DNA of 32,000 nucleotides from Candidatus Iainarchaeum sp. (lineage in GTDB: Archaea; Iainarchaeota; Iainarchaeia; Iainarchaeales; JAZDEL01), in NCBI GenBank assembly GCA_043808785.1, contig JAZDEL010000010.1, positions 120,001 to 152,000 on the forward strand, given 5' to 3'. Both the position numbers and the translations under genes were made by a program. The notes under the pieces are model-generated. The model made no database searches. It saw nothing but the letters and a program-made list of their open reading frames with translations, and was not told the DNA's origin. Positions 2,464-20,056 of this stretch are shown here, piece by piece; the stretch's first letter is position 1; each line of letters begins with the position of its first letter.

Positions 2464-2604
2464 GCGGTCGGTTCGGGGGGTTTTAAGGTCGAATTGGCGG
2501 CTTGCTGGCTGTTTTGGGGGGTTAAGTGCGGGCGCTGGCGACGGGGGGTTTTGGGTGTGTGCTTTGACGCGCCGTAGGCGCGGCGGTTTAAGGGCGTGCC
2601 CGAT

Positions 2605-2663: not shown

Positions 2664-2685
2664 CTGTTGTGCGGATACAGTGCTT

Positions 2686-3899: not shown

Positions 3900-4796
3900 T
3901 TACTGCCGCCTGTAGAACATGAAATAGGCAATCAGCCCCAGCAGCACAGCCGCCCCTACTAACACAAGGAACCAGTCCGTGCCTTGTTCCGCAGCTTGTT
4001 CGCCCTGCGCAGGCTGCGGCATCACAGTTCCCGCGCTTGGGCAATCCTGCGGGCAGTTCTGCGCATTTTCCCCCGCATCGCACATATGATTGCCGTTGCA
4101 CCTTGAGGCTGAGGGAATTTCGGCGTGCTTTTCGATTACCGCGAACTGGAATGATTTTTGCATTGTTTTGTAGCCTGATTTTTTTGCTGTTGCCGTTAAT
4201 TCATAGCTGCCCAGCCCAAGTTCATCCGCAGCAATTGAACCAGGCAGGCTTATCTTTTTTGTTGTTCCGTCAGGCAAAAGAAGTTCGGCACTTACAACGG
4301 GTTCCGTTGCTTCGGATTCAAAACCGAAATAGATTGTTTCATCTGGCGTGAAAAAACTTGATTTGCCGTTGCAGCCCTGGTCTGCGCAGGAGAAGATTTC
4401 AAACCTGAAACTTGGGGCGGTTTCAATCCTGAATTTCTTTTTCCCCCTTGCCTGTTCGGGGCTTTTGACTTCCACAGAGGCAACGCATTCCTGGGGCTCG
4501 AGGGAATCATCTACCTGAATTCCCGAATAGGTGCCTGAATATGCCTTTCCTGCGATTAAGGTTGCGGTTTCCTCATTCAGGGGGGCATTCGGGGCGTTGG
4601 GGCACTTGACCTGCGGGACAAAAATAACCTCTGTCCCGTAGCCAGAGGAAATCGAATAATTGAAGGTGATTTTCTCGCCGCTGGAGAACGAATCGTCGAC
4701 ATTAACCGCCACATCTATTCCCGCACTTGCGGACGGCACAAATAAAAGTACCGCTAGCAAAGCAAAAATTCCCTTCGCCAGTTTACTGCGTTTCAT
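3900..4796 (-). CDS. Cassette 1, gene 3: secreted Ig-like/beta-sandwich protein with Cys-rich mini-module and C-terminal TM anchor
   Basis: Sec-type signal peptide MKRSKLAKGIFALLAVLLFVPSASA, then two beta-rich modules. CNGNHMCDAGENAQNCPQDCP lies at 4038-4100, followed by a P/Q/A linker, a hydrophobic helix WFLVLVGAAVLLGLIAYFMF and the basic tail YRRQ. Its start overlaps the upstream stop (ATGA at 4793-4796). Confidence 0.8.
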   Translation of the reverse strand: MKRSKLAKGIFALLAVLLFVPSASAGIDVAVNVDDSFSSGEKITFNYSISSGYGTEVIFVPQVKCPNAPNAPLNEETATLIAGKAYSGTYSGIQVDDSLEPQECVASVEVKSPEQARGKKKFRIETAPSFRFEIFSCADQGCNGKSSFFTPDETIYFGFESEATEPVVSAELLLPDGTTKKISLPGSIAADELGLGSYELTATAKKSGYKTMQKSFQFAVIEKHAEIPSASRCNGNHMCDAGENAQNCPQDCPSAGTVMPQPAQGEQAAEQGTDWFLVLVGAAVLLGLIAYFMFYRRQ

Positions 4797-7700
4797 CTTG
4801 CAATCTCCCCCCTGAACCTGTCATTTGTGTAATTCTGCTGGATAAAATCCACGCCTTCCGGCAAGGTAAACCAGATGGTAACCGTATATCTGTACTTACC
4901 GGAAAGATTCCCCCCCAGTATGTCGACTGAAAAATGTTTGGCCTCGCCCGGCGCCAGCGATATTGCCACGTTTTCTTCCCCCTCAATTTTAGTGGAAACC
5001 ATGACCGTAACATACCCCAATGTTACAACAGCATCTTTATTCCCGATATTCATTATGTCAAATGTTACGGAATCCCCCGAAATTCCAGGATTTTTTATGG
5101 CAAGGTCCGGGGCTTCGGAATAAAGCCCTATGTCAAAATCGTAATCCGTGAATCCTGAGTCGTTTGCGGTTGTGAAATACTCTTTTCCATACTCGTCAAG
5201 TTTTGAAACCCACAAATATTTCCTGCCTTCGGCGAGTTCGTGGTCAATCTGCCAGCCTTTCGAAACCGCAACAGGCTCGAAATCCTGCGGCGCCTCAAGC
5301 CTTGCAGTAAAGTTTTCGTTCCCCCCTACATCGGATGCCGTGGTGAAATAGCGCGGCTCTTTGCACTGGTCTGGGTAATACTCGCAGAGTTCGGCTATGT
5401 TTTGGGGCAGGTCCATCCGCATTGCGGGAACAGTTAGCCTGTAGTTTTTGCCGCCGCTTGCGTCGCTTATAAACTCCATGCGCGCTTCAGGCAAAGTGTG
5501 AACCGTTCTCAGCTTAATTGTAGGATCGCCGATTAGGAGGAACCATGCCGAATAATTGTCCTCAATAGTGCTGTCCCCAAGCGTTGCGGCATCCAGGACG
5601 ATTCCCGCGTTTTTTGAATTCCTGAATGCCTCCCCTATGGTCGAGCCGTTTGCAAAAATCTCTACAACCTGCCCCTGCATGTTCACCCCGCCCGAGCTGT
5701 CTGTTGCGCCTATGTAGCCTATCGCGCCCTGCCTTATTGCGTTCGCACAAAAGCTGCCTTTGATGAAAGAATATTTAAATGCGCAAGTTGCGCAAGCGCT
5801 TGTTGTTATGAAGGAGTTGTCCAGATAAGGTATCTCATTTGAGTATATGCCCGCCCAGGAGAGGTCGCCGTGGTCCTTGTAGGCCACGAAAAATTTATCC
5901 TTCCAGTGCTCCGGCTTCATCGGGGGGTCGGATGTGCCCGGGCTTCCTATGCCTTCAGGTATTGCAGTCGCGGCATATCCTGCAGATGACATTACTTTCC
6001 CGAAGGCGTATACATCCGCAGGGGCGTCTCCGCATGCCCTGCCCATTGTGATAAGTTGGTTCTCCTCGCTTTGCAGTGTTTCATCGTAAAACATGCTTCT
6101 CGCAACATATGCGGACGTGTCGGCCACGGTCACGCCGAAAATCCTGCCGACAGCAAGGTCAAGGAGCGGGTCGCCGTCATTGGTTTTTGAATAAAACCAC
6201 GCATCCGCGGCATAATACTCGGGAACATAGCCGCCGTTGCTGCCGTCATAATCCATATCTATTGCGTTGGGGCTTACCACTATGGTGAGATATTCAAAAT
6301 CCGACCCCAGCGCCCCTATTGAGGAGTCTATGAAATAATCCACGTTCATATAGTTGCTTAAGCGTGTGCTCAATATCAGTTCGTGTTTTGCGGACGCCAG
6401 GAAGGGCGCGGCAAGGGAGTTCCTGCTGTAAATTTCGTAGATGTAGGTGTTGCCATATGTGCCGTAGCCATCGGAATCGCCGAGGGCTTCTTTAATGTTC
6501 AGGTCATCCGGGTTTACAAGGATTAGTTTATTTGTGTTTGTCAGTTCCGCATATTTTTTCTGCATCTCCTCGATGGAGTATTGCTCGCTTCCCTTCGCAT
6601 CCGAGTTGATATAGTTTTGGGTTGCCGAATCCAGCCCGCCAACAATTATAACGTGCCTGCCGCCGATAACGTTCTTGTACTCATCCAGATTGCCCCCGTT
6701 CACAAAAATTACGGGGGCATTGAGGTATGAGGCATAAACCGAGGCAAGCAGTGCAGCCTCATAATCGTCATAATCAGCGAGCACTACAGTATCAAAAGCC
6801 TTCCAGTATGAGAAATAATCCGCAGGCGAGATTCTTTGCACCTGCCCTTCCGTAAGCCCTGCGCCGTACTCCGACTCCAGCAGCAGGAGATTATCGAGGT
6901 CTTGCGAGGTTTCGCCGACTATTGTGAGCCTTTGGGGCGGGTATTGCCTCATAAAATGCAGGGCTGATTCCGCGTCAAATGCTTCCGGCTCCTGATGGTA
7001 AATCATGGCTGGGTTTTTGTGCACTTCCTCCCCTTCCGTCCAGATTGATACTGGCACAAGCTGCAGAACATCGTGCCAGTCAGCATCGGAAACAAGGAAC
7101 ACTTCCTTCTCAGAATATTTGCTCATCAGTTTTTCGTTGTGTCCCGTTTCCCCGCCGCCGCCCGTGTATTCCCCCTCTCCAAAAATAAGATAGCCGCCAT
7201 CAGGGAAAGTGCACAGCGCATCAACGCTGTCCATTCTCCCGTTGAAAAATCCGACATTATCGATGCTTGCGCGGTTGTAGTGCAGTGTCCCGCCTTTTGA
7301 AAACCATATGTCAAGTTCGCGGTTGTCGTTCACAAGCCAGATAAACTGGTTATTGCCTGCGGCATCCTTGTAGAATGTTACCGCATCCGCAGAGGATGGG
7401 CATTTCTCCAAGCCCGCGCACTGTGCTGCGGCAATTTCGCTTATATTATAGGGCGTGTCGCTGATTTTGCCGTCCTTTATTATCCATGCCTTGCTGCCGG
7501 ATGTTATTTCATATCCATTAATGGAAGGAACATACGTGAAAGCATCTATCGGGCCGTCTATCTGCGGATAGAGTTTGGAAATAAGCCCCTGCTCCCAGCG
7601 CCTCTGCCCGATGTTCCAGCCGAAAACAGTATCTGTGCTGTTTTCAAAGTATAGCATGTATGTGGGGGTCAGGGCGCATGCATCAATTTTGTTTGGCGTG

Positions 7701-7843
7701 TTCTCTTTCAGCCCTACCGCATAAAAAAGGTCGTGCGTGTTCGGCGCCTGCACCTCTCCCTTATATGCCACAACCTGTTCGGCAAATGCGGGCGATGCAA
7801 AGAGAATGAAAAATGCAAAAAGCGCGAGCGCACAGCGGTTCAT
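4793..7843 (-). CDS. Cassette 1, gene 2: large secreted multidomain protein with C25-like (clan CD) cysteine peptidase core
   Basis: Signal peptide ending AFA-EQ, then four ~50-aa repeats opening with IDAC/IDAF/ADAV/VDAL (hemopexin-like). Two alpha/beta modules follow that resemble CWB2-type repeats (VVLADYDDYEAALLASVYASYLNAPVIFV...VIIVGG). C25-like signatures: DAWFYSKTNDGDPLLDLAVGRIFGVT, putative His in YKDHGD (5870-5872), putative Cys in TTSACATC (5792-5794), and GAIGYIGATDSS. The C-terminus has a CARDB-like module (APDLAIKNPGISGDSVTFDIMNIGNKDAVV). No C-terminal anchor. Confidence 0.8.
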   Translation of the reverse strand: MNRCALALFAFFILFASPAFAEQVVAYKGEVQAPNTHDLFYAVGLKENTPNKIDACALTPTYMLYFENSTDTVFGWNIGQRRWEQGLISKLYPQIDGPIDAFTYVPSINGYEITSGSKAWIIKDGKISDTPYNISEIAAAQCAGLEKCPSSADAVTFYKDAAGNNQFIWLVNDNRELDIWFSKGGTLHYNRASIDNVGFFNGRMDSVDALCTFPDGGYLIFGEGEYTGGGGETGHNEKLMSKYSEKEVFLVSDADWHDVLQLVPVSIWTEGEEVHKNPAMIYHQEPEAFDAESALHFMRQYPPQRLTIVGETSQDLDNLLLLESEYGAGLTEGQVQRISPADYFSYWKAFDTVVLADYDDYEAALLASVYASYLNAPVIFVNGGNLDEYKNVIGGRHVIIVGGLDSATQNYINSDAKGSEQYSIEEMQKKYAELTNTNKLILVNPDDLNIKEALGDSDGYGTYGNTYIYEIYSRNSLAAPFLASAKHELILSTRLSNYMNVDYFIDSSIGALGSDFEYLTIVVSPNAIDMDYDGSNGGYVPEYYAADAWFYSKTNDGDPLLDLAVGRIFGVTVADTSAYVARSMFYDETLQSEENQLITMGRACGDAPADVYAFGKVMSSAGYAATAIPEGIGSPGTSDPPMKPEHWKDKFFVAYKDHGDLSWAGIYSNEIPYLDNSFITTSACATCAFKYSFIKGSFCANAIRQGAIGYIGATDSSGGVNMQGQVVEIFANGSTIGEAFRNSKNAGIVLDAATLGDSTIEDNYSAWFLLIGDPTIKLRTVHTLPEARMEFISDASGGKNYRLTVPAMRMDLPQNIAELCEYYPDQCKEPRYFTTASDVGGNENFTARLEAPQDFEPVAVSKGWQIDHELAEGRKYLWVSKLDEYGKEYFTTANDSGFTDYDFDIGLYSEAPDLAIKNPGISGDSVTFDIMNIGNKDAVVTLGYVTVMVSTKIEGEENVAISLAPGEAKHFSVDILGGNLSGKYRYTVTIWFTLPEGVDFIQQNYTNDRFRGEIAR

Positions 7844-8298
7844 TGCGTTTTCACCTCATAAAAAGCTTCTATGAAATAGTCCCCGCCCTGATTGAATGTG
7901 AATGATGCACTGCTGCCTCCGTTCCCCCCGCCGTTGCCGTTTCCGTTGCCCGAACCGCCATCGCCGTTTCCGCTGCCGTTCCCGGTCCCGTCTGAGACGC
8001 CGCCTGCAGGTGGCGTAAATACTCCTGTAGCGAGCCCGCTCAGGTCCGCAGTTACTGTCGGCGCGCCGATTTTTCCCGCATCAAGTTTGGCAACAGTTCC
8101 AGGCCCGCCAAGCGCAATGCCTGCCTCCTCCTTAATCTTCGCAACCCCGCCCTCGGCAGCGGCATTAACCTCGCTCCCCGCACTTTTCGAGGTCTGCATA
8201 ATAAGAAGTATCGCAATCACGGCAACAAGCACAACCCCGCCTATGAGAAGCAGGTATTCCATCGAGCCTTGGGCGCGGCTGTTTCTGGCTTGTGGCAT
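7840..8298 (-). CDS. Cassette 1, gene 1: archaeal type IV pilin-like protein with class III signal peptide
   Basis: MPQARNSRA-QGSMEYLLLIGGVVLVAVIAILLI. Cleavage before QGSMEY would leave Q+1 and E+5 ahead of the hydrophobic helix. A Gly/Asn-rich low-complexity tract lies near the C-terminus. The track start at 8316 is a TTG; the ATG at 8296-8298 fits the TATA spacing. The stop overlaps the next gene start (7840-7843). Confidence 0.8.
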   Translation of the reverse strand: MPQARNSRAQGSMEYLLLIGGVVLVAVIAILLIMQTSKSAGSEVNAAAEGGVAKIKEEAGIALGGPGTVAKLDAGKIGAPTVTADLSGLATGVFTPPAGGVSDGTGNGSGNGDGGSGNGNGNGGGNGGSSASFTFNQGGDYFIEAFYEVKTQ

Positions 8299-8322
8299 TC
8301 GATAATAGTAACGCAAAGGTTG

Positions 8323-8334
8323 TTTATAATTATT
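8323..8334 (-). promoter_or_regulatory. TATA box of cassette 1 operon
   Basis: The minus strand reads AATAATTATAAA, centred about 30 nt upstream of the ATG at 8298. The core AATAATTATA is conserved at the equivalent position of cassette 2 (20045-20056). Confidence 0.5.
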
Positions 8335-8355
8335 GGTATTCGGCTGGCGGGATAT

Positions 8356-11300
8356 CTAGGGCTCTTCAATCTTGGCATTACCTTTCCCCGCAGCCTCCCC
8401 GTTCTCCCTTGCGGCAACCCTCATCAGCCCTTCGGTTTCCCCCTGCCTTAACCTTAACCCGACAACGGAGCTCTTCTGCTTGTTTAATGTAACTCCCACC
8501 AACTGGTCCGCCTCCGAAATTATCGTGTCGTTGTGCGTGATGCTTATGAACTGCGAGCGCCTGCTCATCTGCCCTATCATCCTGCCGAGTTTCAGCGAGT
8601 TGTCCTTGTCGAGCGCTGCATCAACCTCGTCAAATATGTAGAATGGCGCCGTCTCAAACGACTGTATCGCAAACAAAAACGCAAGCGCTGCAAGGCTTTT
8701 CTCCCCCCCGCTCATTGCATCTATGCTCTTCAGTTTCTCCCCCTTGTATTTTGCCTCTATTGTAAGCCCCCCTTCAAGAGGGTTCACGCTGTCCGTAAGC
8801 CCCAATCTCCCTTCCCCCTCGAAGAAAAGGCTGTAAAGTTCCATGAACTTGTTGTTTATCCTTGCGAAGCAGTCCGTGAAAACCTGGTTCTTTTTCACGT
8901 CTATTTTGTCTATCATTTCAACAACAGCAAGCCTTTCCTCGTCCAGCTTTTTCGCCCTCTCCCTGAGGTCGACAACCTCGTTCCTGTACGAATCGAAGTT
9001 TTCAGTTGCCTTCATGTTTATCGCGCCGAGCGCCTTTATTTCCCGCTCTATAGAGGGTATGCGCTCCCTTAATTTCGGCACGCTGAACTCCTTCAGCAGC
9101 TTCTCCCCCTTGTGCTGTTCGAACTCCAATTCCATGTCCGCAATCCTCACATCATTTTTGGATTGTGAAAGGTTCAGTTCATTTATCTCCCTGCCGAGCC
9201 TTTCCGCCTTTGCCTCGGCCTCGTCCCTCTTCAGGCCGATGTTTGAAATCCTGTTCGTTATCCTGCCCTTCTCCTCCTCGAACATCCTTGTCTCTTTCCT
9301 CGCTTTCTCAAGTTCCGCATCCTTCTTTGCAAGTTCCTCCTCGAGTTTCTTGAGTCCGTGCCTCTGCGCATCCGCAAACGCGGAGCCCTTGCTGTTCAGT
9401 TCCCCGGCTTTTTCCATCTCCGCCTCGGTTTCCGCCTTCGAGGCTGCCGCAGACTCCAGCCACGCCTCCAGTTTTGCCGCCTTGTTCTGCAGTTCGGATT
9501 TTTGCGCGTTCGCGCTTTCAATCCTCCCTATAAGCCCCGACATTTCCGTGTTTTCCTCGCTCTTCCTGAACGCCTCCACCTTTTTCGCGAGCGCGGACAT
9601 GGTTGCCTCCGCCGCAACAACGGATTTCTCCGCAGCGCCCTTCTCCGCAAGCGCGGCATTAACCCCCGCCTGCAGAGCCTTCAGGTCAATTCCCGCAGCA
9701 GCCCTCTCAACATCCCTGAGCGCGTTCCTCGAGCGCTCCAATCCCGCGGCTTCAGCAACCGCGGCCCTTTCCTCGTGCAGGAGTTCCTCCAGTTTTTCGC
9801 GCTCCTTTGAGAGTTTTTCGCGCTCTGCCGCTCTCGCCTCCGCTTCCGCGCCAACTTTTGTCAGCAGCGCCGCCTTCTTCTTCGAAATCGCCTCCTTAAG
9901 TTTCTCGCCCAGTTCCCTGTCGCACACGGGGCAGTTCTTCTGCGCGATTTTCAGTTCCCTTATCTCGTCCTCGAGCACCCTTTTGGCGTTCTTTGCCCCG
10001 TGCAATGCATCAATTGCGGCTTCAAGCGCCTTGTGATTGTCCCTTGCCTTGCCCTCAATTTTCATTTCCCGAAGTTCGGCAATCCTTTTCTCAGTGCGCT
10101 CCAGCTTTTTCACGTCCGCGGAAAGCGCATCTTCCCGCTTTTTCAGTTCCGCAAGCCTTGATTTCGCGGTTTCAAGCGCGTGCCTCATCTTGCCAACTTC
10201 GGCATCAAGCCTGTAAATCTCGCCCTTAATTTTCCCCGCCCTCTCCCTCGCCTCCTCCAGCGCCTTCTCGTCCTCCGCCGCTTTTGCGCCCGCAGCGGAA
10301 ACCTTCCCGGATTTCTTCCCGATTATCCTGTTCAGTTCCGCAAGCTGCGCATCCATCTCCTTTAATTTGTCCCTTGCGCCCCTGAGCGCCTCCTCCTTTT
10401 CCCTTGTGCCGTCAATAAGCCCCTTCCTTTTCTCCTTCAATGCCTCAATCCTTGCGCGGTTCCTCGCAATCTCCTCCTCCTTTGCCGAAATCCTCTCCCT
10501 TGCAAGCCTGACCTCGGAGCGCTTTTCCTCCACGCCCTTCCCTATCTCCTCATAGGTTTTCTCGTTCGCCCTGAGAATGTTCTTTATTGTTTCATCAAGC
10601 TTCTTTTCAAGTTCCGCAACCTCCGCGCCCAAACCCGCCTTCTCCTTCCTTGCCCCTTCAAGTTCCGCAGCAAGCGCATCGCCCTTCTTTTTCGCGGATG
10701 CGAGTTCCGCGCGCACGCGAATTATTTCCGCATTCAGCAGCGTGGCCTTGCTCCTCCTCAGTTCCTCGTTCAGCGTGTTGTATTTCAGCACGGCCTCGCG
10801 CTCCTTCTCAAGTTCGGCAAGGTATTGCTCCCTTTCCCCGAGCACAATCATCGCGTCTTTAACCCGCCTGTCCACAGCCTCCAGCTTTTTGAGCGCCTCC
10901 TCCTTCTTTCCCTCGAATTCCGAAAGCCCCGCCATATCATCGATTATTTTCCTGCGCTCCTTTGCGCTCATCTCTATTACCCTTGTGATATCCCCCTGCA
11001 CAACGATGTTCTGCCCCGTGGCCTTTATCCCGAGTTCAAGAAGCAGGGTTGTTACCTCATTCAGGCTGCGCTTCTTGCCGTCGAGCAGCATCACGGAGCG
11101 GCCTTCCTTGTCTATCTTCCTTGAAATGACATACGTCTTTTCCCCGCCCTGCAGTTCCAGCTCGACCTTCGCATACGGCTCATCGGCATCGTGGTTCACG
11201 AGGTCAGTGAGCTTTGAAGCGCGCAGCATTTTAAGCGAGGTTATGCCGAACGCGAAAAGTATCGCATCAACCAGGTTGGATTTTCCCGAGGCATTGGAGC

Positions 11301-13906: not shown

Positions 13907-15265
13907 TCAGCGCGCTTTCCCCAGCCCGTGCTTCTCCAAAAATTCATCCAGCGCCTTTTCAAGCGTGAGTTCCCCGATTTCCTCGAGTTCGTAGTTCGCG
14001 CGCACGAGGGGCTTCTTCGCCTTCAGCACGCGCGAAAGGTCGATAGGTGTTCCCGAAACCACAACATCCGCATTGCTCGCGTTTATTGTTTCCTCGAGTT
14101 CCTTAATCTGCTGTGCGCTGTAGCCCATTGCAGGCAGGATTTCCTTGCGCGGGAACTTTTTGAGGGTTTCCTTTATGGAACCTACGGCAAACGGCGTTGC
14201 ATCAATCAATTCCGCTGCGCCCGCATCCTTCGCGGCAAAATACCCCGCCCCGTGCTCGAGTTCGCCGTGGGTTAATGTGGGCCCATCTTCAACAACAAGC
14301 ACGCGCTTGCCCTTAACCAATTCGGGTTTGTCGAGCGTGATTGTAGAGTTTGCCATTATTATTTTCGCGTTCGGGTTTATTGCGCGGATGTTGCGTTCTA
14401 CTGTTGCGACCCCTTCTTTCGGCGCTGTGTTCACCTTGTTGATTATAACAACATCCGCAATCCGCGCGTTCACCTCCCCCGGGAAGTAAGCCAACTCATG
14501 CCCTGCGCGGAAAGGGTCAGCCACGGTTATGTATAAGTCAGGCTTGCCTTTTCCCTGCGGCCTGTAATATGAAAGGTCGTTGTTCCCGCCGTCCCAGAGA
14601 ATTACATCCGCTTCTTTTTCCGCGTGTTCAAGGATTTCGGCGTAATCAACCCCCGAAAAAATCACAAGCCCGCGCTCTATGTAGGGTTCATATTCTTCGC
14701 GCTCTTCAATCGTGCAATCATATTTCTCAAGGTCGGAATATTTTTCATAGCGCTCCCACCTTTTTTTCACGAGGTCTGCGTAAGGCATTGGGTGTCGAAT
14801 GGCAACACAACGAACGCCGCGCTTCTTCAGCAGTTCAACAATTTTTCTGCTCGTCTGGCTTTTGCCCGAACCAGTGCGCACAGCGCACACGGCAATTACC
14901 GGCTTGCTTGACTCCAGCATGGAGTGCTTCGGCCCTATTAACCTGAAATCCGCGCCGCAGGACATGCACTCCGCGGAGTTATGCATAACCTCGGCATATG
15001 TAACATCGCTGTATGCATGAACACATTCGTCAGCCCCGTGCTTCTTGATAAGTTCCTGCAGTTCCGCCCTTGCGCGGATTGGGATTCCTTTCGGGTAAAG
15101 TTTTCCCGCCAACTGCGGCGGGTAAACCCTGCCTTCAATCCCCGGAATCTGCTGCGCAGTAAAAGCAACAACCTCGTAATTTTCATTATCGCGGAAAACT
15201 GTGTTGAAGTAGTGGAAGTCCGTGCCTGCCGCGCCGATTATTATTACTTTTTTTCTCGCATTCAT
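13907..15265 (-). CDS. COG2403-family GTPase-like protein / cyclic 2,3-diphosphoglycerate synthetase-like
   Basis: KVIIIGAAGTDFHYFN, FTAQQIPGIEGRVYPPQLAGKLYPKGIPI, AVRTGSGKSQTS, RHPMPYADL, CTIEEREEYEPYI, ILWDGGNND, VVEDGPTLTHGE, LPAMGYSAQQIKELE. Start set at the ATG at 15263-15265 (the track start is a TTG two codons upstream). Confidence 0.8.
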   Translation of the reverse strand: MNARKKVIIIGAAGTDFHYFNTVFRDNENYEVVAFTAQQIPGIEGRVYPPQLAGKLYPKGIPIRARAELQELIKKHGADECVHAYSDVTYAEVMHNSAECMSCGADFRLIGPKHSMLESSKPVIAVCAVRTGSGKSQTSRKIVELLKKRGVRCVAIRHPMPYADLVKKRWERYEKYSDLEKYDCTIEEREEYEPYIERGLVIFSGVDYAEILEHAEKEADVILWDGGNNDLSYYRPQGKGKPDLYITVADPFRAGHELAYFPGEVNARIADVVIINKVNTAPKEGVATVERNIRAINPNAKIIMANSTITLDKPELVKGKRVLVVEDGPTLTHGELEHGAGYFAAKDAGAAELIDATPFAVGSIKETLKKFPRKEILPAMGYSAQQIKELEETINASNADVVVSGTPIDLSRVLKAKKPLVRANYELEEIGELTLEKALDEFLEKHGLGKAR

Positions 15266-15267
15266 TT

Positions 15268-16182
15268 TCAAGCCTCCATTTGCCTTGGTTTGTAGAATTT
15301 AAAATAAGCAATAAGCATCAGCGCAAGCAGCACAGCTGCTCCGCCAAAAACCAGAAGCCAGTCAATGCCCGCAGGTTCGGCTACGGGCTCGCCCAGCGCT
15401 GGCTGTGCAGCAGCCCCTGCGAATGGGCAATCCTGCGGGCAGTTCTGCGCATTTTCCCCAACATCGCAAACATGGTTGCCGTTGCACCTTGAGACTGAGG
15501 GAATTTCGGCGTGCTTTTCGATTACTGCGAACTGCGCGGTTTTCCGCATCGTTTTGTAGCCCTCCTTTTTTGCTGTTGCCCTTAATTCATAGCTGCCCGG
15601 CCCCAGTTCATCTGCAGCAATTGAACCAGGCAGGCCTATCGTTTTTGTTGTTCCGTCCGGCAAAACAAGTTCGGCACTTACTGCAGGCTCTGCGGTTTCA
15701 GATTCAAAACCGAAATAGATCGTTTCACTTGGCGTGAAAAAGCCTGATTTGCCGTTGCAGCCCTGGTCTGCGCAAGAGAAGATTTCAAACCTGAAACTTG
15801 GGTTGGTTTCAATCCTGAATTTCTTTTCCCCCCTTGCCTGTTCGGGGCTCTTAACGTCCACAGAGGCCGTGCATTCCTGGGGCTCTAGGGAACCGTCCAC
15901 CTCAATGCCTGAATAGGTGCCTGAATATGCCTTCCCCGCGATTAAGGCTGCAGTTTCCTCATTCAGGGGGGCATTCGGGGCGTTCGGGCACTCGACATGC
16001 GGGACAAAAACAATCCCTGTTCCGTAGTCCGAGGAAATTGAATAATCAAAGGAGATTTTCTCGCCGCTGGAGAACGAATCCGCGACATTAATCGCCACAT
16101 CTATCCCTGCACTTGCTGATGGCACAAATAAAAGCGCCGCGAGCAAAGCAAAAATGCCCTTTGCCAGTTTGCTGTGTTTCAT
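15268..16182 (-). CDS. Cassette 2, gene 3: paralogue of 3900..4796 (anchored Ig-like protein)
   Basis: Collinear with the cassette 1 protein: same signal peptide, same CNGNHVCDVGENAQNCPQDCP module and a TM tail. The extreme C-terminus differs (FYKPRQMEA). The stop lies 2 nt before the downstream COG2403 gene start. Confidence 0.8.
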   Translation of the reverse strand: MKHSKLAKGIFALLAALLFVPSASAGIDVAINVADSFSSGEKISFDYSISSDYGTGIVFVPHVECPNAPNAPLNEETAALIAGKAYSGTYSGIEVDGSLEPQECTASVDVKSPEQARGEKKFRIETNPSFRFEIFSCADQGCNGKSGFFTPSETIYFGFESETAEPAVSAELVLPDGTTKTIGLPGSIAADELGPGSYELRATAKKEGYKTMRKTAQFAVIEKHAEIPSVSRCNGNHVCDVGENAQNCPQDCPFAGAAAQPALGEPVAEPAGIDWLLVFGGAAVLLALMLIAYFKFYKPRQMEA

Positions 16183-19100
16183 CTTGCAATCTCCCCCCTG
16201 AACATGTCATTCGTGTAGTTCTGCTGGATGAAATCCACGCCTTCCTGCAAGGTAAACCCGATGTTAACCATATACTTGTCCTTGCCGGCAAGATTCCCCC
16301 CCAATATGTCTACTGAAAAGTGTTTAGCCTGGCCCGGCGCCAGTGATATCCCCACATTTTCCTCCCCCCCAGTTTTAGCAGAAACCATGACCGTAACATA
16401 CTCCAATGTTACAACCGCATCTTTATTCCCGATATTCGTTATATCAAAGGTTACCGAGTCCCCCGAGATTCCGGGATTTTTTATGGCAAGGTCCGGGGCT
16501 TCGGAATAAAGTTCTATATCAAAATCGTAATCCGTGAATCCGGAGTCGTTTGCGGTTGTGAAATACTCTTTTCCATACTCATCGAGTTTTGAAACCCACA
16601 AATATTTCCTTCCTTGGCCGTATTCATGGTCAATCTGCCAGCCTTTTGAAACCGCAACAGGCTCGAAATCCTGCGGCGCTTCAAGCCTTGCCGTAAAGTT
16701 TTTGTTCCCCCCGGCAGCGGATGCCGTGGTGAAATAGAGCGGCTCCTTGCACTGGTTTGGGTAATACTCGCAGAGTTCGGCTATGTTTTCGGGTATGTCA
16801 ATCCGCATTGCAGGAACGGTTATCCCGTAGTTTCCGCCGCCACTTGCCTCGCTTATGAATTCCATGCGCGCTTTGGGGAGGGTGTGCGCCGTTCTCACCT
16901 TCATTGTAGGGTCGCCGATGAGGAGATACCATCCCGAAGAATTGTCCTCAATGTTGCCTTGCGTAAGCGTTGCAGCGTCCAGGACGATTCCCGCGTTTTT
17001 TGAATTCCTGAATGCCTCCCCCGTGGTCGAGCCGTTTGCAAAAATCTCGGCAATCTGCCCATCCATGTTCACCCCGCCCGAGCTGTCCGTTGCGCCTATG
17101 AAGCCTATCGCACCCTGCCTTATTGCGTTCGCGCAAAAGCTGTATTTGAAATAATACTTAAACGTGCATGTCAGGCAGGCCATCGTAGTTATGAATGAGT
17201 TGTCCAGATAAGGAATCTCATGCGCATCTATGCCTGCCCACGTGGTGCCGCCATGGTCCCTGTAAATTGTGAAAAATTTATCCTTCCAATGTTCCGGCTT
17301 CATATGGGGGTTAAGCATATTGGGGCCTTCACCTTCAGGTATTACAACCGTGGCATATCCTGCGGAAGACATTACTTTCCCGAAGGCATATACTTCCGCA
17401 GGGGCGGTTTGGTCTGTCCTGCCCATCGTAATAAGCATGCTCTCCTCGTTTTGCAGTGTTTCATCGTAAAACATGCTTCTCACAACGTATGCTGACGTGT
17501 CAGCCACGGTCACGCCGAAAATCCTGCCGACAGCAAGGTCAAGGAGCGGGTCACCATCCTTGGTTTTTGAATAAAACCACGCATCCGCAGCATAATAGTC
17601 GCCGCCCTCGTCCAAATAATCCATGCCTATTGCATTTGGGCTTGCAACTATGGTAAGATATTCAACGTCCGCACCCAGCGCCTCTATTGAGGAGTCTATG
17701 AAGGCATCCACATCCATATAGTTGGCCGAGCGCGTGCTTAATATCAGCTCGTGTTTTGCGGATGCCAGGAATGGCGCGGCAAGGGAGTTCCTGCCGTAAA
17801 TTTCGTAGACGTGGATGTGGCTATATATGCCGTAGCCGTCGTAATCATCCAGCACTTCCTTGATGTCCAGGTCGTCGGGATTTACGAGGATTAGTTTATT
17901 CGTGTTTGTCAGCTCCGCATATTTTTTCTGCATCTGTTCAAGTGAATATTGCTCCGCCCCAGCTGAGTTCGAGTTGATGTAGCTTTGGGTCGCAGAATCC
18001 GCCTGGCCGACAATTATAACATGCCTGCCGCCGATAACATTCTTGTATTCATCCAGATTGCCCCCATTCACGAAAATTAGGGGCGCATTGATGTATGAGG
18101 CATAAGCCGAGGCAAGCAGTGCAGCCTCATAATTGTCATAATCGGTGAGCACGACAGTATCAAAAGCCTTCCAGTATGCGAAGTAATCCGCAGGCGAGAT
18201 TCTCTGCACCTGCCCTTCCGTGAGCCTTGCGCCGTACTCCGAATCCAGCATCAGGAGATTGTCCAGGTCTTGCGGGGTTTCCCCGGCTATTGTGAGCCTT
18301 TGGGGCGGGTATTGCCTCATGAAATACATGGCTGATTCCGCGTCAAATGATTCATAGCATTGGACTTCCTTGTCTTCGCTTATTTTTAGCCCGAACTCAA
18401 AAGTTTCCCCTTCGGGCGCCGCCCTGTTTATGTTTTCAATTTTTCCGTCCGCCGGATTTGTGAATTGGATGAAGTCCGGCTTTTCCGTTATTTCAATTGA
18501 TTTCACAACCGCCCCAGTAGTGATTTTAATGCTGAGGGTTACTTCATCGCCTGGCTTCAAGTTAGCAAACTTGCTGAACGTTCCGGTTTCATACCAGTTG
18601 GCATCTGCAGGCTCGACAGTGACCTTTGCCCCGATGGGGTCTTTGAAGCCCTTCTGCCAATCCGAACCTGTCCAATGTCCGATATATGTGAGGTCAAGGT
18701 CGGTGCTCCTGCACGGCTCCTGATGGTAAATCAGGGCGGGGTTTTTGTGCACCTCTCCCCCTTCTGTCCAGATTGATACAGGCACAAGCTGCAAAACATC
18801 GTGCCAGTCCGCGTCAGAAACAAGGAAAACCTCCTTGTCAGAATATTTGCTCATCAGTTTTTCGTTAGGCCCGATTTCCCAGCCGCCGCTGCCCGTGTAT
18901 TCCCCCTCCCCGAAAATAAGATAGCCGCCATCAGGGAAAGTGCACAGCGCATCAACGCTGTCCATTCTCCCCTTGAAGAATCCGACATTATCGATGCTTG
19001 CGTGGTTGTAGTGCAGCGCCCCGCCTTTTGAAAACCATATGTCGAGTTCGCGGTTGCCGTTCACAAGCCAGATAAACTGGTTATTGCCTGCGGAATCCTT

Positions 19101-19574
19101 GTAGAATGTTACCGCATCCCCCGAGGAGGGGCATTTCTCAAGCCCTGCGCACTGCTCCGCCGCAATTTCGCTTATGTTATATGGCGTGTCGCTGATTTTG
19201 CCGTCCTTTAGCACCCACGCCTTATTGCCCGAAGTTATTTCATAAATGTTTGACGAGGGAATGTACGTGAAAGCATCTATCGGGCCGTCTATCTGCGGGT
19301 AGAGTTCCGAAATCAGCCCCTGCTCCCAGCGCTTCTGCCTGATGTTCCAGCCGAAAACAGTATCTGTGCTGTTTTCAAAGTAGAGCATGTATGTGGGGGT
19401 CAGGGCACATGCATCAATTTTGTTTGGCGTGTTTTCTGTAAGCCCAACGGAATAAAACAAATCGTGCGTGTTCAGTGCCTGCACCTCGCCCTTGAATGAA
19501 ACAACCTGCTCGGCAAATGCGTAAGATGAAAACGCAAGGGCAAATGCCAAAAGCGCAAGCGCAAAGCGGTTCAT
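16179..19574 (-). CDS. Cassette 2, gene 2: paralogue of 4793..7843 with an extra ~120-aa inserted module
   Basis: Same domain order as cassette 1. Putative His in YRDHGG (17253-17255) and Cys in TTMACLTC (17175-17177). The insertion is bracketed by Cys residues, between LIYHQEP and SFDAES (about 18354-18713). Confidence 0.8.
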   Translation of the reverse strand: MNRFALALLAFALAFSSYAFAEQVVSFKGEVQALNTHDLFYSVGLTENTPNKIDACALTPTYMLYFENSTDTVFGWNIRQKRWEQGLISELYPQIDGPIDAFTYIPSSNIYEITSGNKAWVLKDGKISDTPYNISEIAAEQCAGLEKCPSSGDAVTFYKDSAGNNQFIWLVNGNRELDIWFSKGGALHYNHASIDNVGFFKGRMDSVDALCTFPDGGYLIFGEGEYTGSGGWEIGPNEKLMSKYSDKEVFLVSDADWHDVLQLVPVSIWTEGGEVHKNPALIYHQEPCRSTDLDLTYIGHWTGSDWQKGFKDPIGAKVTVEPADANWYETGTFSKFANLKPGDEVTLSIKITTGAVVKSIEITEKPDFIQFTNPADGKIENINRAAPEGETFEFGLKISEDKEVQCYESFDAESAMYFMRQYPPQRLTIAGETPQDLDNLLMLDSEYGARLTEGQVQRISPADYFAYWKAFDTVVLTDYDNYEAALLASAYASYINAPLIFVNGGNLDEYKNVIGGRHVIIVGQADSATQSYINSNSAGAEQYSLEQMQKKYAELTNTNKLILVNPDDLDIKEVLDDYDGYGIYSHIHVYEIYGRNSLAAPFLASAKHELILSTRSANYMDVDAFIDSSIEALGADVEYLTIVASPNAIGMDYLDEGGDYYAADAWFYSKTKDGDPLLDLAVGRIFGVTVADTSAYVVRSMFYDETLQNEESMLITMGRTDQTAPAEVYAFGKVMSSAGYATVVIPEGEGPNMLNPHMKPEHWKDKFFTIYRDHGGTTWAGIDAHEIPYLDNSFITTMACLTCTFKYYFKYSFCANAIRQGAIGFIGATDSSGGVNMDGQIAEIFANGSTTGEAFRNSKNAGIVLDAATLTQGNIEDNSSGWYLLIGDPTMKVRTAHTLPKARMEFISEASGGGNYGITVPAMRIDIPENIAELCEYYPNQCKEPLYFTTASAAGGNKNFTARLEAPQDFEPVAVSKGWQIDHEYGQGRKYLWVSKLDEYGKEYFTTANDSGFTDYDFDIELYSEAPDLAIKNPGISGDSVTFDITNIGNKDAVVTLEYVTVMVSAKTGGEENVGISLAPGQAKHFSVDILGGNLAGKDKYMVNIGFTLQEGVDFIQQNYTNDMFRGEIAR

Positions 19575-20020
19575 TGCGCTTTCACCGCCTGCAATTCGTT
19601 CTTCACATCCCCCCCGCCCTGATAGAAAGTGAAGGTTGCGCTTCCGCCGCCATCGGGGGGCACTATGCCGCCATTCCCCCCGCCGCCAGCGCCGCTGCTC
19701 GGCGGCGCGAGTATTCCTGTAGCAAGCCCGCTCAAATCCGCGGTTGTTGTCGGCGCGCCGATATTTCCCGCATAAAGTTTGGCAACAGTTCCAGGCCCGC
19801 CAAGCGCAATGCCTGCTTCTTCCTTAATCTTCACCATTCCCCCCTCCGCGGTTGCATTAACCTCGCCCCCCGCGCTTTTCGAGGTCTGCATAATAAGAAG
19901 TATCACAATCACGGCGACAAGCACAACCCCGCCTATGAGGAGGAGGTATTCCATCGAGCCCTGCCCTGCGGCTGCTTTGGTGGCATGCCTTTTTTCATTC
20001 GGGCTTTTTTGCGCGGGCAT
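19571..20020 (-). CDS. Cassette 2, gene 1: pilin-like protein with class III signal peptide
   Basis: MPAQKSPNEKRHATKAAAG-QGSMEYLLLIGGVVLVAVIVILLI, giving G at -1, Q at +1 and E at +5. The Gly-rich tract differs from copy 1. The ATG is at 20018-20020. Confidence 0.8.
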   Translation of the reverse strand: MPAQKSPNEKRHATKAAAGQGSMEYLLLIGGVVLVAVIVILLIMQTSKSAGGEVNATAEGGMVKIKEEAGIALGGPGTVAKLYAGNIGAPTTTADLSGLATGILAPPSSGAGGGGNGGIVPPDGGGSATFTFYQGGGDVKNELQAVKAQ

Positions 20021-20044
20021 CGCTAACTATAACGCCCCCAGTGC

Positions 20045-20056
20045 ATATAATTATTT
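20045..20056 (-). promoter_or_regulatory. TATA box of cassette 2 operon
   Basis: The minus strand reads AAATAATTATAT, centred about 30 nt upstream of the ATG at 20020. It is homologous to the cassette 1 promoter. Confidence 0.5.

What the first reader, a model, noticed from the sequence alone, without database searches (positions are those of the whole stretch)
3900..8335. Translationally coupled three-gene surface module: pilin-like protein, giant secreted C25-like peptidase and membrane-anchored Ig-like protein
Three minus-strand genes share one TATA box (8323-8334). They are joined by 4-nt start/stop overlaps at 7840-7843 and 4793-4796, so they look like one operon with coupled translation. 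Gene 1 has a class III (prepilin-type) signal peptide, with QGSMEYLLLIGG after the predicted cleavage site. Gene 2 is a 1016-aa Sec-secreted protein with no membrane anchor. Read by eye, it stacks four hemopexin-like repeats, two CWB2-like alpha/beta modules, a clan CD C25-like peptidase core, beta-sandwich modules and a CARDB-like module. Gene 3 is a type I anchored Ig-like protein. I do not know a described archaeal system that pairs a type IV pilin-like subunit with a C25-like enzyme and a dedicated anchored partner. No pilus assembly ATPase, platform protein or prepilin peptidase is in the window. The module may therefore be an accessory (tip, adhesin or processing) unit that uses machinery encoded elsewhere.
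Basis: partly seen in the sequence, partly recalled or inferred. Interest (0 to 1): 0.8.

Follow-up and report, generated by a model that had tools for sequence, protein, structure and literature searches.

The report
Surface gingipain-like protease with conserved anchored partner
A tiny DPANN archaeon carries three copies of an operon for a small pilin-like protein, a large secreted gingipain-type protease and a membrane-anchored Ig-like protein; the protease and its partner turn out to be an almost inseparable, apparently undescribed gene pair found across ultra-small archaea and also in contigs labelled as ultra-small (CPR) bacteria.

Summary
Three minus-strand genes (7840-8298, 4793-7843, 3900-4796) are joined by ATGA overlaps. 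An AATAATTATA box lies about 30 nt upstream of the first ATG, and Shine-Dalgarno-like motifs precede genes 2 and 3. Gene 1 has a Pfam class III signal. Gene 2 is a Pfam C25 peptidase whose His658/Cys684 align with the gingipain R catalytic dyad. Gene 3 is a signal peptide, two Ig-like sandwiches and a C-terminal TM helix.

The conserved unit is the gene 2-gene 3 pair. Gene 3 homologues follow C25 homologues in about 41 of 47 genome loci, and C25 genes precede gene 3 homologues in 41 of 42 metagenome loci. Gene 3 belongs to a family without a Pfam match (856 clusters).

Gene 1 is lineage-specific. However, unrelated pilin-like genes sit directly upstream of the pair in about 9 other loci, and type IV pilus ATPases lie nearby in 9.

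Most likely this is a membrane-tethered surface protease complex with an optional pilin-like accessory. No function has been tested.

The parts
8323..8334 (-). TATA-box-like promoter element, AATAATTATAAA. It lies about 30 nt upstream of the gene 1 ATG, which implies a leaderless or near-leaderless transcript.
   Evidence: Read directly from the sequence. The exact 10-mer AATAATTATA occurs only here and at 20046-20055, at the same spacing from the paralogue's ATG.
7840..8298 (-). Gene 1: a 152-aa class III signal (type IV pilin-like) protein. The leader is MPQARNSRA, with predicted cleavage before Q10. A hydrophobic helix spans about residues 13-34. The rest is a Gly/Ala/Ser/Asn-rich low-complexity region, ending in a short conserved C-terminal FTFNQGG segment.
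   Evidence: Pfam PF04021 at E = 9e-8, 32.3 bits against a cut-off of 23.7. NCBI names it a 'class III signal peptide-containing protein'. Its only relatives are the two paralogues in the same MAG. Composition.
7851..7857 (-). Shine-Dalgarno-like GAGGTGA, 7 nt before the gene 2 ATG and inside the 3' end of gene 1.
   Evidence: The equivalent GGCGGTGA is present in copy B.
4793..7843 (-). Gene 2: a 1016-aa Sec-secreted multidomain C25-family cysteine peptidase with no membrane anchor.
   Evidence: Pfam Peptidase_C25 at E = 5e-14. NCBI names it a 'C25 family cysteine peptidase'. The AF2 model has pLDDT 80.4 and is high from residue 230 onward. The only strongly hydrophobic segment apart from the signal peptide lies inside a confidently modelled globular alpha/beta module.
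7124..7780 (-). Gene 2 residues 22-240: a lineage-specific N-terminal domain with four [IVA]DA-type repeats at residues 53, 99, 152 and 207. It looks like a hemopexin-like four-bladed propeller.
   Evidence: Foldseek matches to the hemopexin domains of vitronectin, MMP-13 and MMP-9 at probability 1.0, but with low TM-scores and on a low-pLDDT part of the model. Repeat positions. There is no Pfam match. The domain is shared only with this MAG's paralogues.
6533..7111 (-). Gene 2 residues 245-437: two CWB2-like alpha/beta modules. This is the most conserved part of the family.
   Evidence: Pfam CW_binding_2 at E = 1e-4, 23.1 bits against a cut-off of 24.9. Foldseek match to Cwp8 (5j6q) at probability 0.98. 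Column conservation is 0.55-0.61, against 0.40 for the catalytic part.
5504..6532 (-). Gene 2 residues 438-780: the C25 (gingipain-like, clan CD) catalytic domain. The His658 codon is 5870-5872 and the Cys684 codon is 5792-5794.
   Evidence: The family profile matches gingipain R (1cvr/4ief) at E = 6e-9. The HG motif aligns to RgpB YTGHGS and the AC motif to FDVACVNG. His658 and Cys684 are at least 90% conserved. Foldseek matches the separase caspase-like fold at probability 0.99.
4796..5503 (-). Gene 2 residues 781-1016: variable C-terminal beta-sandwich modules ending in a CARDB-like domain.
   Evidence: AF2 secondary structure. Foldseek match to the CARDB domain 2kl6 at probability 1.0, TMt 0.59. 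Occupancy in the family alignment is low.
4805..4812 (-). Shine-Dalgarno-like GGGGGGAG, 8 nt before the gene 3 ATG and inside the 3' end of gene 2.
   Evidence: The motif is identical in copy B.
3900..4796 (-). Gene 3: a 298-aa type I membrane protein. It has a signal peptide (residues 1-25), two Ig-like beta-sandwiches (27-125 and 132-220), a Cys-rich CNGNHxCDxGENxQNCPQDC segment (228-255), a linker, a TM helix (275-297) and an RRQ tail.
   Evidence: AF2 model with pLDDT 92.6. Foldseek gives only generic tandem Ig/Fn/MG-type sandwiches. There is no Pfam or NCBIfam family. The family has 856 representative clusters.
15268..20056 (-). Paralogous operon B: TATA-like box at 20045-20056, gene 1' 19571-20020, gene 2' 16179-19574 (1131 aa, with an extra inserted domain of about 115 aa), gene 3' 15268-16182.
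   Evidence: Identity to copy A is 66%, 82-88% and 81% for genes 1, 2 and 3. The ATGA overlaps are the same.
13907..15265 (-). A fourth gene tightly following gene 3' in copy B only. The ATG is 2 nt after the gene 3' stop and a GGAGG SD lies upstream. The product is a cytoplasmic P-loop protein weakly similar to cyclic 2,3-diphosphoglycerate synthetase. It is probably co-transcribed but is not part of the module, because copy A lacks it.
   Evidence: 9sxb, E = 8e-4. No Pfam match above cut-off.

Best explanation
The locus is one of three paralogous operons in a Diapherotrites (DPANN) archaeon.

Proposed organisation and mechanism:
- Each operon is transcribed from a TATA box as a leaderless mRNA. 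Translation of genes 2 and 3 is coupled through SD motifs and ATGA overlaps.
- The functional core is a two-protein cell-surface protease. Gene 2 is exported by Sec and released from its signal peptide. It carries an intact gingipain-type His/Cys active site but has no anchor of its own.
- Gene 3 is made in step with gene 2. It is a type I membrane protein whose two Ig-like domains dock the conserved core of gene 2 (the two CWB2-like modules plus the C25 domain) and hold the enzyme at the membrane surface.
- The variable N- and C-terminal domains of gene 2 select targets. Here these are a hemopexin-like propeller, beta-sandwiches and a CARDB-like domain. In other lineages they are propellers, discoidin, LamG or dockerin domains.
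- The enzyme probably cleaves external or host-envelope proteins, for peptide scavenging or for contact with a host cell.
- Gene 1 is a small N-terminally anchored, low-complexity protein that a prepilin peptidase encoded elsewhere would process. It is an optional accessory that connects the pair to a type IV pilus-like assembly system.

What is shown and what is inferred:
- Shown: gene structure, domain identities, conservation of the active-site residues, and conservation of the pair.
- Inferred: that genes 2 and 3 bind each other, that gene 3 acts as the anchor, the substrates, and any role of gene 1.
For: Operon signals:
- ATGA overlaps.
- SD-like motifs 7-8 nt before the gene 2 and gene 3 ATGs.
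- An identical TATA 10-mer at the same distance from the ATG in both window copies, and nowhere else in the window.

Copy number:
- Three copies in one MAG, with consecutive NCBI accessions MFH1224676-78, MFH1225553-55 and MFH1225562-64.

Gene 2 as a peptidase:
- Pfam Peptidase_C25 above cut-off.
- The family profile matches RgpB at E = 6e-9, with His and Cys aligned to the RgpB catalytic motifs.
- His658 and Cys684 are at least 90% conserved across 116 and 51 homologues.

Conservation of the pair:
- A gene 3 HMM hit lies directly downstream, on the same strand, in about 41 of 47 genome loci that have room for it.
- A C25 gene lies directly upstream of gene 3 homologues in 41 of 42 metagenome loci that have room for it.
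- Of 78 non-redundant junctions, 67 overlap or are at most 10 nt apart, and 19 have the exact 4-nt overlap.

Complementary topology:
- None of 102 C25 homologues has a C-terminal TM segment.
- 122 of 150 gene 3 homologues do.

Core versus decoration:
- The conserved core of gene 2 is residues 245-780. The N- and C-terminal domains are lineage-specific.

Link to pilus systems:
- A Pilin_N-type pilin family overlaps the C25 start in L024, L038, L043, L075, L081, L119 and L120.
- T2SSE ATPases lie next to or near the pair in 9 loci.
Against: - No direct evidence shows that genes 2 and 3 bind each other. No complex model could be made.
- Gene 3 gives only generic Ig-like fold matches.
- The anchor role is only one reading of the adjacency. 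An inhibitor, chaperone or substrate role fits the same data.
- Some C25 homologues lack a gene 3 neighbour (L005, L018, L059, L120).
- In three Chloroflexi-labelled loci the gene 3-like ORFs are split, and no C-terminal hydrophobic segment was visible in the parts of them shown.
- Conservation of the catalytic residues does not prove activity, and the S1 specificity residues could not be aligned.
- Gene 1 has no relatives outside this MAG and lacks an obvious globular pilin domain.
- The pilus-gene associations are a minority of loci, are partly phylogenetically non-independent, and were not compared with a background rate.
Confidence: 0.5

Rival explanations
1. Gene 3 is a dedicated membrane-anchored inhibitor, immunity protein or maturation chaperone for the peptidase. 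It would be an extracytoplasmic analogue of the staphopain/staphostatin logic, or of Ig-fold cysteine-protease inhibitors such as chagasin. It would keep gene 2 inactive, or protect the cell's own surface, until the enzyme is released or engaged.
For: The near-obligate adjacency and translational coupling are as expected for a protease and its cognate inhibitor. Gene 3 is all beta-sandwich, with a strongly conserved 'A[ST]KEGYKT' motif in domain 2 (residues about 204-211). Whether that motif is an exposed loop was not checked on the model. That staphostatin genes follow staphopain genes in one operon, and that chagasin is an Ig-fold inhibitor, is from my own knowledge.
Against: There is no sequence or specific fold match to any known inhibitor family. 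A permanent TM anchor on the inhibitor, together with the complete absence of anchors on the enzyme family, is explained more simply by tethering. The two roles do not exclude each other.
Confidence: 0.2
2. Gene 1 is a minor pilin that places the gene 2/gene 3 unit on or at the base of a type IV pilus built by machinery encoded elsewhere. The module would then be a pilus-associated adhesin/protease, or a pseudopilus-deployed enzyme.
For: Gene 1 has a bona fide class III signal. Gene 1 is coupled to gene 2 in all three paralogous operons. Pilin-like genes have been recruited independently in front of the pair in about 9 other loci, 7 of them from one Pilin_N-type family with a conserved 7-nt overlap. 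T2SSE ATPases lie directly after gene 3 in L029, L042, L105 and L044, and within 6 kb in five more loci.
Against: Most loci (about 50 of 60 with a complete 5' context) have no pilin-like gene upstream. The CPR-labelled loci show none. Mature gene 1 is mostly Gly/Ala/Ser/Asn low complexity. Class III signals in archaea also occur on non-pilus surface proteins such as the Sulfolobus sugar-binding proteins (own knowledge). Gene 3 has its own TM anchor, which argues against the unit riding on a fibre tip. There is no pilus machinery in the window.
Confidence: 0.15
3. Gene 2 is not a degradative protease but a sortase-like transpeptidase, in the manner of the C25-family PorU of type IX secretion. 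It would cleave a C-terminal anchor, for example that of gene 3 or of other surface proteins, and transfer the protein to a surface glycan. The CWB2-like modules would bind that polymer.
For: Gene 2 belongs to the C25 family and has an intact dyad. Gene 3 ends in a TM helix plus a basic tail, the general shape of a sorting signal. The CWB2-like modules are the most conserved part of gene 2. That PorU is a C25-type sortase is from my own knowledge.
Against: Alignments of gene 3 homologues show no conserved motif before the TM helix. There are no T9SS components or CTD-type signals. The profile's PDB sequence match is to gingipain R, and PorU did not appear in it. The idea rests entirely on analogy.
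Confidence: 0.1

Closest known systems
Gingipains RgpB/Kgp of Porphyromonas gingivalis (MEROPS family C25, clan CD)
   Same: The catalytic domain is homologous: Pfam C25 is above cut-off, the family profile matches 1cvr at E = 6e-9, and the His/Cys dyad aligns. Both are secreted, multidomain, cell-surface-associated enzymes flanked by beta-sandwich domains.
   Different: There is no T9SS C-terminal domain and no outer membrane. The catalytic domain is preceded by two strongly conserved CWB2-like modules. The enzyme is paired with a dedicated membrane-anchored Ig-like partner gene. It occurs in DPANN archaea and in contigs labelled CPR bacteria. The S1 specificity residues could not be aligned.
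Predicted extracellular C25 peptidases of sedimentary archaea (Thermoprofundales/MBG-D and others)
   Same: These are archaeal C25-family proteins with signal peptides. They are interpreted as extracellular protein-degrading enzymes and are expressed in situ (PMC6461988; PMC8359207; PMC9563170).
   Different: Those reports list peptidase families only. The passages read mention no partner gene, pilin-like neighbour or CWB2-like core.
Clostridioides difficile cell-wall proteins with CWB2 repeats (e.g. Cwp8, Cwp84)
   Same: Alpha/beta CWB2-type modules are fused to a surface enzyme. Foldseek matches Cwp8 (5j6q) at probability 0.98. That Cwp84 is a CWB2-anchored cysteine protease is from my own knowledge.
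   Different: There are two modules here rather than the usual three. The Pfam score is just below cut-off. The host is an archaeon, in which the C. difficile PSII ligand would not be expected, so the ligand is unknown. The protease domain is C25, not papain-like.
Archaeal class III signal peptide proteins (Pfam PF04021; EppA-type pilins of Methanococcus; Pilin_N PF07790 proteins)
   Same: Gene 1 has the QxSxExxxL motif and a hydrophobic helix. Pilin_N-type proteins occupy the same position in other lineages.
   Different: Mature gene 1 is largely low complexity with no evident globular pilin domain. Neither assembly into a filament nor processing is shown.
Staphopain-staphostatin operons (protease plus cognate beta-barrel inhibitor)
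   Same: A cysteine protease gene is followed immediately by a small all-beta partner gene in one operon (own knowledge).
   Different: Staphostatins are cytoplasmic and unanchored and belong to a different fold family. No homology was detected.

Membership tests
Peptidase family C25 (gingipain-like, clan CD) | Sequence match to the family model above the curated threshold | tested here: met
   PF01364 at E = 4.9e-14, 52.8 bits against a cut-off of 23, covering residues 539-778. The paralogue scores 55.4 bits.
Peptidase family C25 (gingipain-like, clan CD) | Catalytic His-Gly ... Ala-Cys dyad at the positions of the RgpB catalytic His and Cys | tested here: met
   The family profile aligned to 1cvr/4ief places 'yadHGs' on YTGHGS and 'iadACst' on FDVACVN. 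His658 and Cys684 are at least 90% conserved in the family. The numbering of the RgpB catalytic residues (His211, Cys244) is from my own knowledge.
Peptidase family C25 (gingipain-like, clan CD) | Caspase-like alpha/beta fold | tested here: inconclusive
   The AF2 core has high pLDDT. Whole-protein Foldseek gave separase (clan CD) at probability 0.99, but gingipain itself was not in the top 50 for this multidomain query.
Peptidase family C25 (gingipain-like, clan CD) | Peptidase activity and specificity | not testable with these tools
   This needs biochemistry. The S1 pocket residues fell in an unaligned stretch.
Archaeal type IV pilin-like / class III signal peptide proteins | Short basic leader, the cleavage motif (QxSxExxxL of PF04021) and a hydrophobic helix of about 20 residues | tested here: met
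   PF04021 at 32.3 bits against a cut-off of 23.7. The sequence is MPQARNSRA|QGSMEYLLLIGGVVLVAVIAILLIM.
Archaeal type IV pilin-like / class III signal peptide proteins | Globular pilin domain and assembly into a filament | tested here: inconclusive
   The mature part is 118 aa, of which 30 are Gly, and is low complexity. No structure was predicted for it and its only relatives are two paralogues. Filament assembly is not testable with these tools.
Archaeal type IV pilin-like / class III signal peptide proteins | Cognate prepilin peptidase and assembly ATPase/platform in the genome | not testable with these tools
   None is in the 32 kb window. The rest of the MAG could not be fetched.
CWB2 (cell wall binding 2) domain | Match to PF04122 above threshold and the usual triple-repeat arrangement | tested here: inconclusive
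   23.1 bits against a cut-off of 24.9. The structural match to Cwp8 has probability 0.98. Only two modules are evident in the model.
Hemopexin-like four-bladed propeller | Four repeats folding as a propeller, with a match to the family model | tested here: inconclusive
   Four [IVA]DA repeats lie at residues 53, 99, 152 and 207. Foldseek gives probability 1.0 to 7u68, 1pex and 1itv, but TMt is only about 0.3 and this part of the model has pLDDT below 50. There is no Pfam hit.
Conserved C25 + Ig-like-anchor gene pair (defined here) | A gene 3 homologue immediately downstream of the C25 gene on the same strand, tightly spaced | tested here: met
   Window copies A and B; about 41 of 47 and 41 of 42 loci elsewhere; 67 of 78 junctions at most 10 nt apart.

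The most novel reading that the evidence does not exclude
The C25 enzyme plus its Ig-like membrane partner is a shared piece of episymbiont equipment. It would have been exchanged between DPANN archaea and CPR bacteria and deployed with the help of type IV pilus-like (pseudopilus) machinery. Its job would be to cut into the envelope (S-layer or wall proteins) of the host cell, so that attachment and uptake can follow. In that reading the pilin-like first gene and the adjacent T2SSE ATPases mark a secretion or presentation route for a surface protease that has no described counterpart.
Probability: 0.15. Interest if true: 0.85.

Novelty: new variant of a known kind. Interest (0 to 1): 0.6.

Why it matters
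DPANN archaea and CPR bacteria are ultra-small organisms that mostly depend on a host, and their host-contact machinery is largely unknown.

This work gives three things:
- It defines a widespread gene family without a Pfam match: gene 3, with 856 representative clusters.
- It shows that this family is almost always welded to a gingipain-type peptidase with an intact active site.
- It shows that the pair occurs across many DPANN lineages and in a coherent clade of contigs labelled CPR, sometimes next to pilin genes and pilus ATPases.

That yields a concrete, testable candidate for a surface proteolytic or host-interaction complex, and a new partner-dependent way of displaying a C25 enzyme. If the pair merely scavenges peptides, the result is still a useful annotation for a large family of 'hypothetical proteins'.

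Tried and rejected
- Fetching the rest of the MAG to look for prepilin peptidase or pilus genes. Look-ups for P0004, P0121, P0123 and the window's pyrophosphatase were not on record.
- A single-sequence PDB search with gene 2 found nothing. The family profile was needed.
Both were solved with smaller or permitted alignments.
- A metagenome scan with the 86-sequence gene 3 alignment had no conserved stretch to search with. The 6-sequence alignment worked.
- A word-index search with gene 3 found only the MAG's own paralogues. The exhaustive HMMER search found 856 clusters.
- NCBIfam gave nothing for genes 1 to 3.
- The sigma-70 promoter and intrinsic-terminator scan was at background level and is not relevant to archaea.
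- Six literature searches found no description of the pair.
- Rejected: that the triad is conserved as a triad, because the upstream neighbours are heterogeneous.
- Rejected: that gene 3 carries a PGF-CTERM or LPXTG-type sorting motif, because none is conserved before the TM helix.
- Rejected: that the hydrophobic segment at gene 2 residue 363 is a TM helix. It lies inside a confidently modelled globular alpha/beta module.

Full report
**1. What is in the sequence**

Three minus-strand ORFs occupy 3900-8316.
- Gene 1 most likely starts at the ATG at 8298 and encodes 152 aa.
- Gene 2 is 4793-7843 (1016 aa).
- Gene 3 is 3900-4796 (298 aa).

Both junctions are ATGA start/stop overlaps, at 7840-7843 and 4793-4796.

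The sequence AATAATTATAAA lies at 8334-8323, about 30 nt upstream of the gene 1 ATG. The exact 10-mer AATAATTATA occurs only twice in the window, both on the minus strand. The second copy (20046-20055) sits at the same distance from the ATG of a paralogue of gene 1.

Genes 2 and 3 are each preceded, inside the upstream gene, by a Shine-Dalgarno-like motif 7-8 nt before the ATG: GAGGTGA at 7857-7851 and GGGGGGAG at 4812-4805. Gene 1 has none. A leaderless first gene followed by SD-led, overlapping distal genes is the standard archaeal operon pattern (established knowledge). The operon reading is therefore well supported by the sequence, although no transcript data were available.

Gene 1 follows an SMC gene (8356-11391). 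Gene 3 converges on an AAA_14 ATPase gene.

**2. A second and a third copy**

The finding does not mention that the window holds a paralogous operon. Gene 1' is 19571-20020, gene 2' is 16179-19574 and gene 3' is 15268-16182. The overlaps, SD motifs and TATA spacing are the same as in copy A. Protein identities to copy A are 66%, 82-88% and 81%.

Copy B runs on into a fourth, cytoplasmic gene (13907-15265) that is weakly similar to cyclic 2,3-diphosphoglycerate synthetase. Copy A lacks this gene.

Database names place the window in a 'Candidatus Diapherotrites archaeon' MAG, on a contig of 233,549 bp. A third set of paralogues (P0123, P0004, P0121) lies on another contig of the same MAG. Its NCBI accessions are consecutive (MFH1224676-78), as are those of copies A and B. 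P0004 keeps the same core and the YKDHG...SACDTC motifs.

**3. The three proteins**

Gene 1:
- It matches Pfam Class_IIIsignal above the cut-off. The sequence MPQARNSRA|QGSMEYLLLIGG... fits that family's QxSxExxxL motif and is followed by a hydrophobic helix.
- The mature part (118 aa) is mostly Gly/Ala/Ser/Asn, with a short conserved FTFNQGG segment near the C-terminus.
- Its only detectable relatives are the two paralogues in the same MAG.

Gene 2:
- It matches Pfam Peptidase_C25 at E = 5e-14.
- A profile of 51 homologues matches gingipain R (1cvr, 4ief) at E = 6e-9. The family's HG and AC motifs align with the catalytic His and Cys motifs of RgpB.
- His658 and Cys684 are at least 90% conserved.
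- The AF2 model has mean pLDDT 80. It is high from residue 230 onward and low for residues 20-230.
It matches hemopexin-like domains at probability 1.0, but with poor TM-scores and on the low-confidence part of the model. It also matches Cwp8 (CWB2) at 0.98, the clan CD separase fold at 0.99, and a CARDB domain at 1.0 with TMt 0.59.
- Four [IVA]DA repeats at residues 53, 99, 152 and 207 fit a four-bladed hemopexin-like propeller.
- There is an N-terminal signal and no anchor.

Gene 3:
- It has no Pfam or NCBIfam family.
- Its AF2 model has pLDDT 92.6. It shows a signal helix, two beta-sandwiches (residues 27-125 and 132-220), a Cys-rich segment, a linker and a C-terminal TM helix.
- Foldseek returns only generic tandem Ig/Fn/MG-type sandwiches.

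**4. What is conserved elsewhere**

Distribution of gene 2:
- It has 118 relatives at E <= 1e-5. Their source names are DPANN lineages (Woese-, Pace-, Aenigm-, Nano-archaeota and Diapherotrites), CPR bacteria (Parcubacteria, Patescibacteria) and, in one case, Omnitrophota.
- The shared core is residues 245-780. The two CWB2-like modules are more conserved (0.55-0.61) than the catalytic part (0.40). The N- and C-terminal domains are lineage-specific decorations.

Adjacency, starting from gene 2:
- A genome scan returned 57 loci. An HMM of gene 3 finds a homologue directly downstream, on the same strand, in about 41 of the 47 loci with room for one.
- One locus has the order swapped.
- Three Chloroflexi-labelled loci carry two small ORFs, each resembling one Ig domain of gene 3.
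- L005, L018 and L059 have none.

Adjacency, starting from gene 3:
- In a metagenome scan, 41 of the 42 loci with at least 600 nt of upstream sequence have a C25 gene directly upstream.
- Of 78 non-redundant junctions, 67 overlap or are at most 10 nt apart, and 19 have the exact 4-nt overlap.
- An exhaustive HMMER search finds 856 gene 3 clusters at E <= 1e-3 and 670 at E <= 1e-10.

Topology is complementary. None of 102 C25 homologues has a C-terminal TM segment, whereas 122 of 150 gene 3 homologues do.

Taxon labels need care.
- The genes from MAGs labelled Kazan and Saccharibacteria are 100% identical.
- MAGs labelled Dehalococcoidales and Methanothrix share genes at 63-72% identity, which suggests binning errors.
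- The Falkowbacteria/Saccharibacteria group does form its own cluster, at about 50% identity within the group and 33-37% to DPANN.

**5. The first gene is facultative, but a pilus link recurs**

The gene upstream of C25 homologues is heterogeneous: tRNA synthetases, iPGM, CobA or nothing. The triad is therefore not the conserved unit.

Several observations still point to type IV pilus-like systems:
- A different family of about 166 aa, with a Pilin_N-like KRG|xSPVI N-terminus and a four-Cys domain, sits directly upstream of the C25 gene in L024, L038, L043, L075, L081, L119 and L120. In the five of these loci where the gap could be measured it is a 7-nt overlap.
- L025 and L003/L004 have other pilin-like ORFs upstream.
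- Some Aenigmatarchaeota loci have a 73-aa ORF with a lipoprotein-like N-terminus and a low-complexity linker in that position.
- T2SSE ATPases follow gene 3 within about 100 nt in L029, L042 and L105 and within about 260 nt in L044.
- T2SSE ATPases lie 3.5-6 kb downstream in L002, L019, L033/L121, L040 and L119.

These associations are a minority of loci and partly share ancestry, and I did not measure a background rate.

**6. Mechanism**

The most economical reading is a two-protein surface protease. A Sec-secreted but unanchored gingipain-type enzyme is held at the membrane by its co-translated Ig-like partner, and variable outer domains select the target. A small pilin-like or otherwise N-terminally anchored accessory is present in some lineages.
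- Shown: gene structure, domain identities, conservation of the dyad, conservation of the pair, and complementary topology.
- Inferred: binding of gene 2 to gene 3, the anchor role, the substrates, and the role of gene 1.

The rivals are:
- gene 3 as a cognate inhibitor or chaperone;
- a PorU-like transpeptidase.

None could be excluded, because no complex modelling or expression data were available.

**7. Comparison with what is known, and novelty**

- Gene 2 is a member of family C25 by the sequence tests run here, and NCBI already names it so.
- Gene 1 is a class III signal protein by Pfam and by NCBI.
- Published work treats archaeal C25 proteins as extracellular degradative peptidases, and the passages I read mention no partner.
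- Six searches of the held library found no description of the C25-gene 3 pair or of a pilin-C25 association. That library is incomplete, so the absence is not proof.

I rate this as a new variant of a known kind. It is a known enzyme family in a new, conserved, partner-dependent architecture that includes a large protein family without a Pfam match. The interest lies in its spread across ultra-small symbiotic lineages, apparently in both archaea and bacteria, and in its recurring contact with pilus genes.

Noticed in passing
window 15268-20056 (minus strand): A second, paralogous copy of the whole three-gene operon, with the same TATA 10-mer, overlaps and SD motifs. Gene 2' carries an extra inserted domain of about 115 aa (residues about 287-407) that is also present in the third paralogue P0004.
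   Followed up: yes
window 13907-15265 (minus strand): A 452-aa cytoplasmic P-loop protein starts 2 nt after the stop of gene 3', with a GGAGG SD upstream. It is weakly similar to cyclic 2,3-diphosphoglycerate synthetase (9sxb, E = 8e-4). It seems co-transcribed with operon B but has no counterpart after operon A.
   Followed up: partly
window 27435-27517 (minus strand): A tRNA-Ser (CGA) lies inside the 5' end of the long ORF 25799-27532, which is a weak STT3/oligosaccharyltransferase-like match. The true start of that gene must therefore be further downstream than the ORF list suggests.
   Followed up: no
window 21270-21435 (plus strand): Rfam calls a tRNA (46.8 bits) that spans 166 nt, which suggests an intron-containing archaeal tRNA. 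ARAGORN did not report it. It overlaps ORFs without any Pfam match at 21025-21702 and 20314-21207.
   Followed up: no
window 20260-20320: A G/T-rich tract of short repeats (ggttttggtttttttggttttgtttttgcc... on the minus strand) lies about 200-300 nt upstream of operon B, next to a short inverted repeat (aaaccaaccgcgcggttggttt).
   Followed up: no
L045 9784-10476, L050 9876-10577, L056 10342-11095: In three Chloroflexi-labelled loci the C25-like gene is shorter (about 600-750 aa, matching only the first half of the core). It is followed by two ORFs of about 113 aa, each resembling one Ig domain of gene 3. No C-terminal hydrophobic segment was visible in the parts of these ORFs that were shown.
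   Followed up: partly
L007 525-746, L008 616-867, L068 1143-1364, L099/L100 6657-6878: In a group of closely related loci, at least one from an Aenigmatarchaeota MAG, a 73-aa ORF overlaps the C25 start by 4 nt. It has a lipoprotein-like N-terminus (...ILISGC) and a Ser/Gly/Pro-rich linker. It occupies the same position as gene 1, and its build (an N-terminal anchor plus a low-complexity linker) is similar.
   Followed up: partly
L013 vs L015; L031/L034/L035/L036: The C25 genes from MAGs labelled Kazan and Saccharibacteria are 100% identical. MAGs labelled Dehalococcoidales, 'uncultured bacterium' and Methanothrix share C25 genes at 63-72% identity. Both cases are probably binning or labelling errors in public MAGs, so the taxonomic spread should be read with care.
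   Followed up: partly
gene 2 residues 245-437 (window 6533-7111): The CWB2-like modules are more conserved across the family than the catalytic domain. The invariant residues D290, Y361, A371 and S476 of the larger alignment all lie outside the catalytic part (residues 531-780), and three of them fall in these modules. This suggests that the modules bind something common to all lineages, possibly gene 3 itself.
   Followed up: partly
window 23350-24189, 13187-13756, 2596-3867: Other genes in the window are a SocA/Panacea antitoxin-like protein, a NYN-domain protein and an AAA_14 ATPase. About ten further ORFs of 100-420 aa have no Pfam match.
   Followed up: no
gene 3 residues 228-255 (window 4032-4115) and L071 1-3591: The Cys-rich motif CNGNHxCDxGENxQNCPQDC is conserved in many gene 3 homologues. 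A loosely similar Cys/Asp-rich repeat (ICDDGIDNEGDG.TDC.D.DC) occurs in the large secreted protein that replaces the C25 gene upstream of gene 3 in L071. It has no Pfam model.
   Followed up: no
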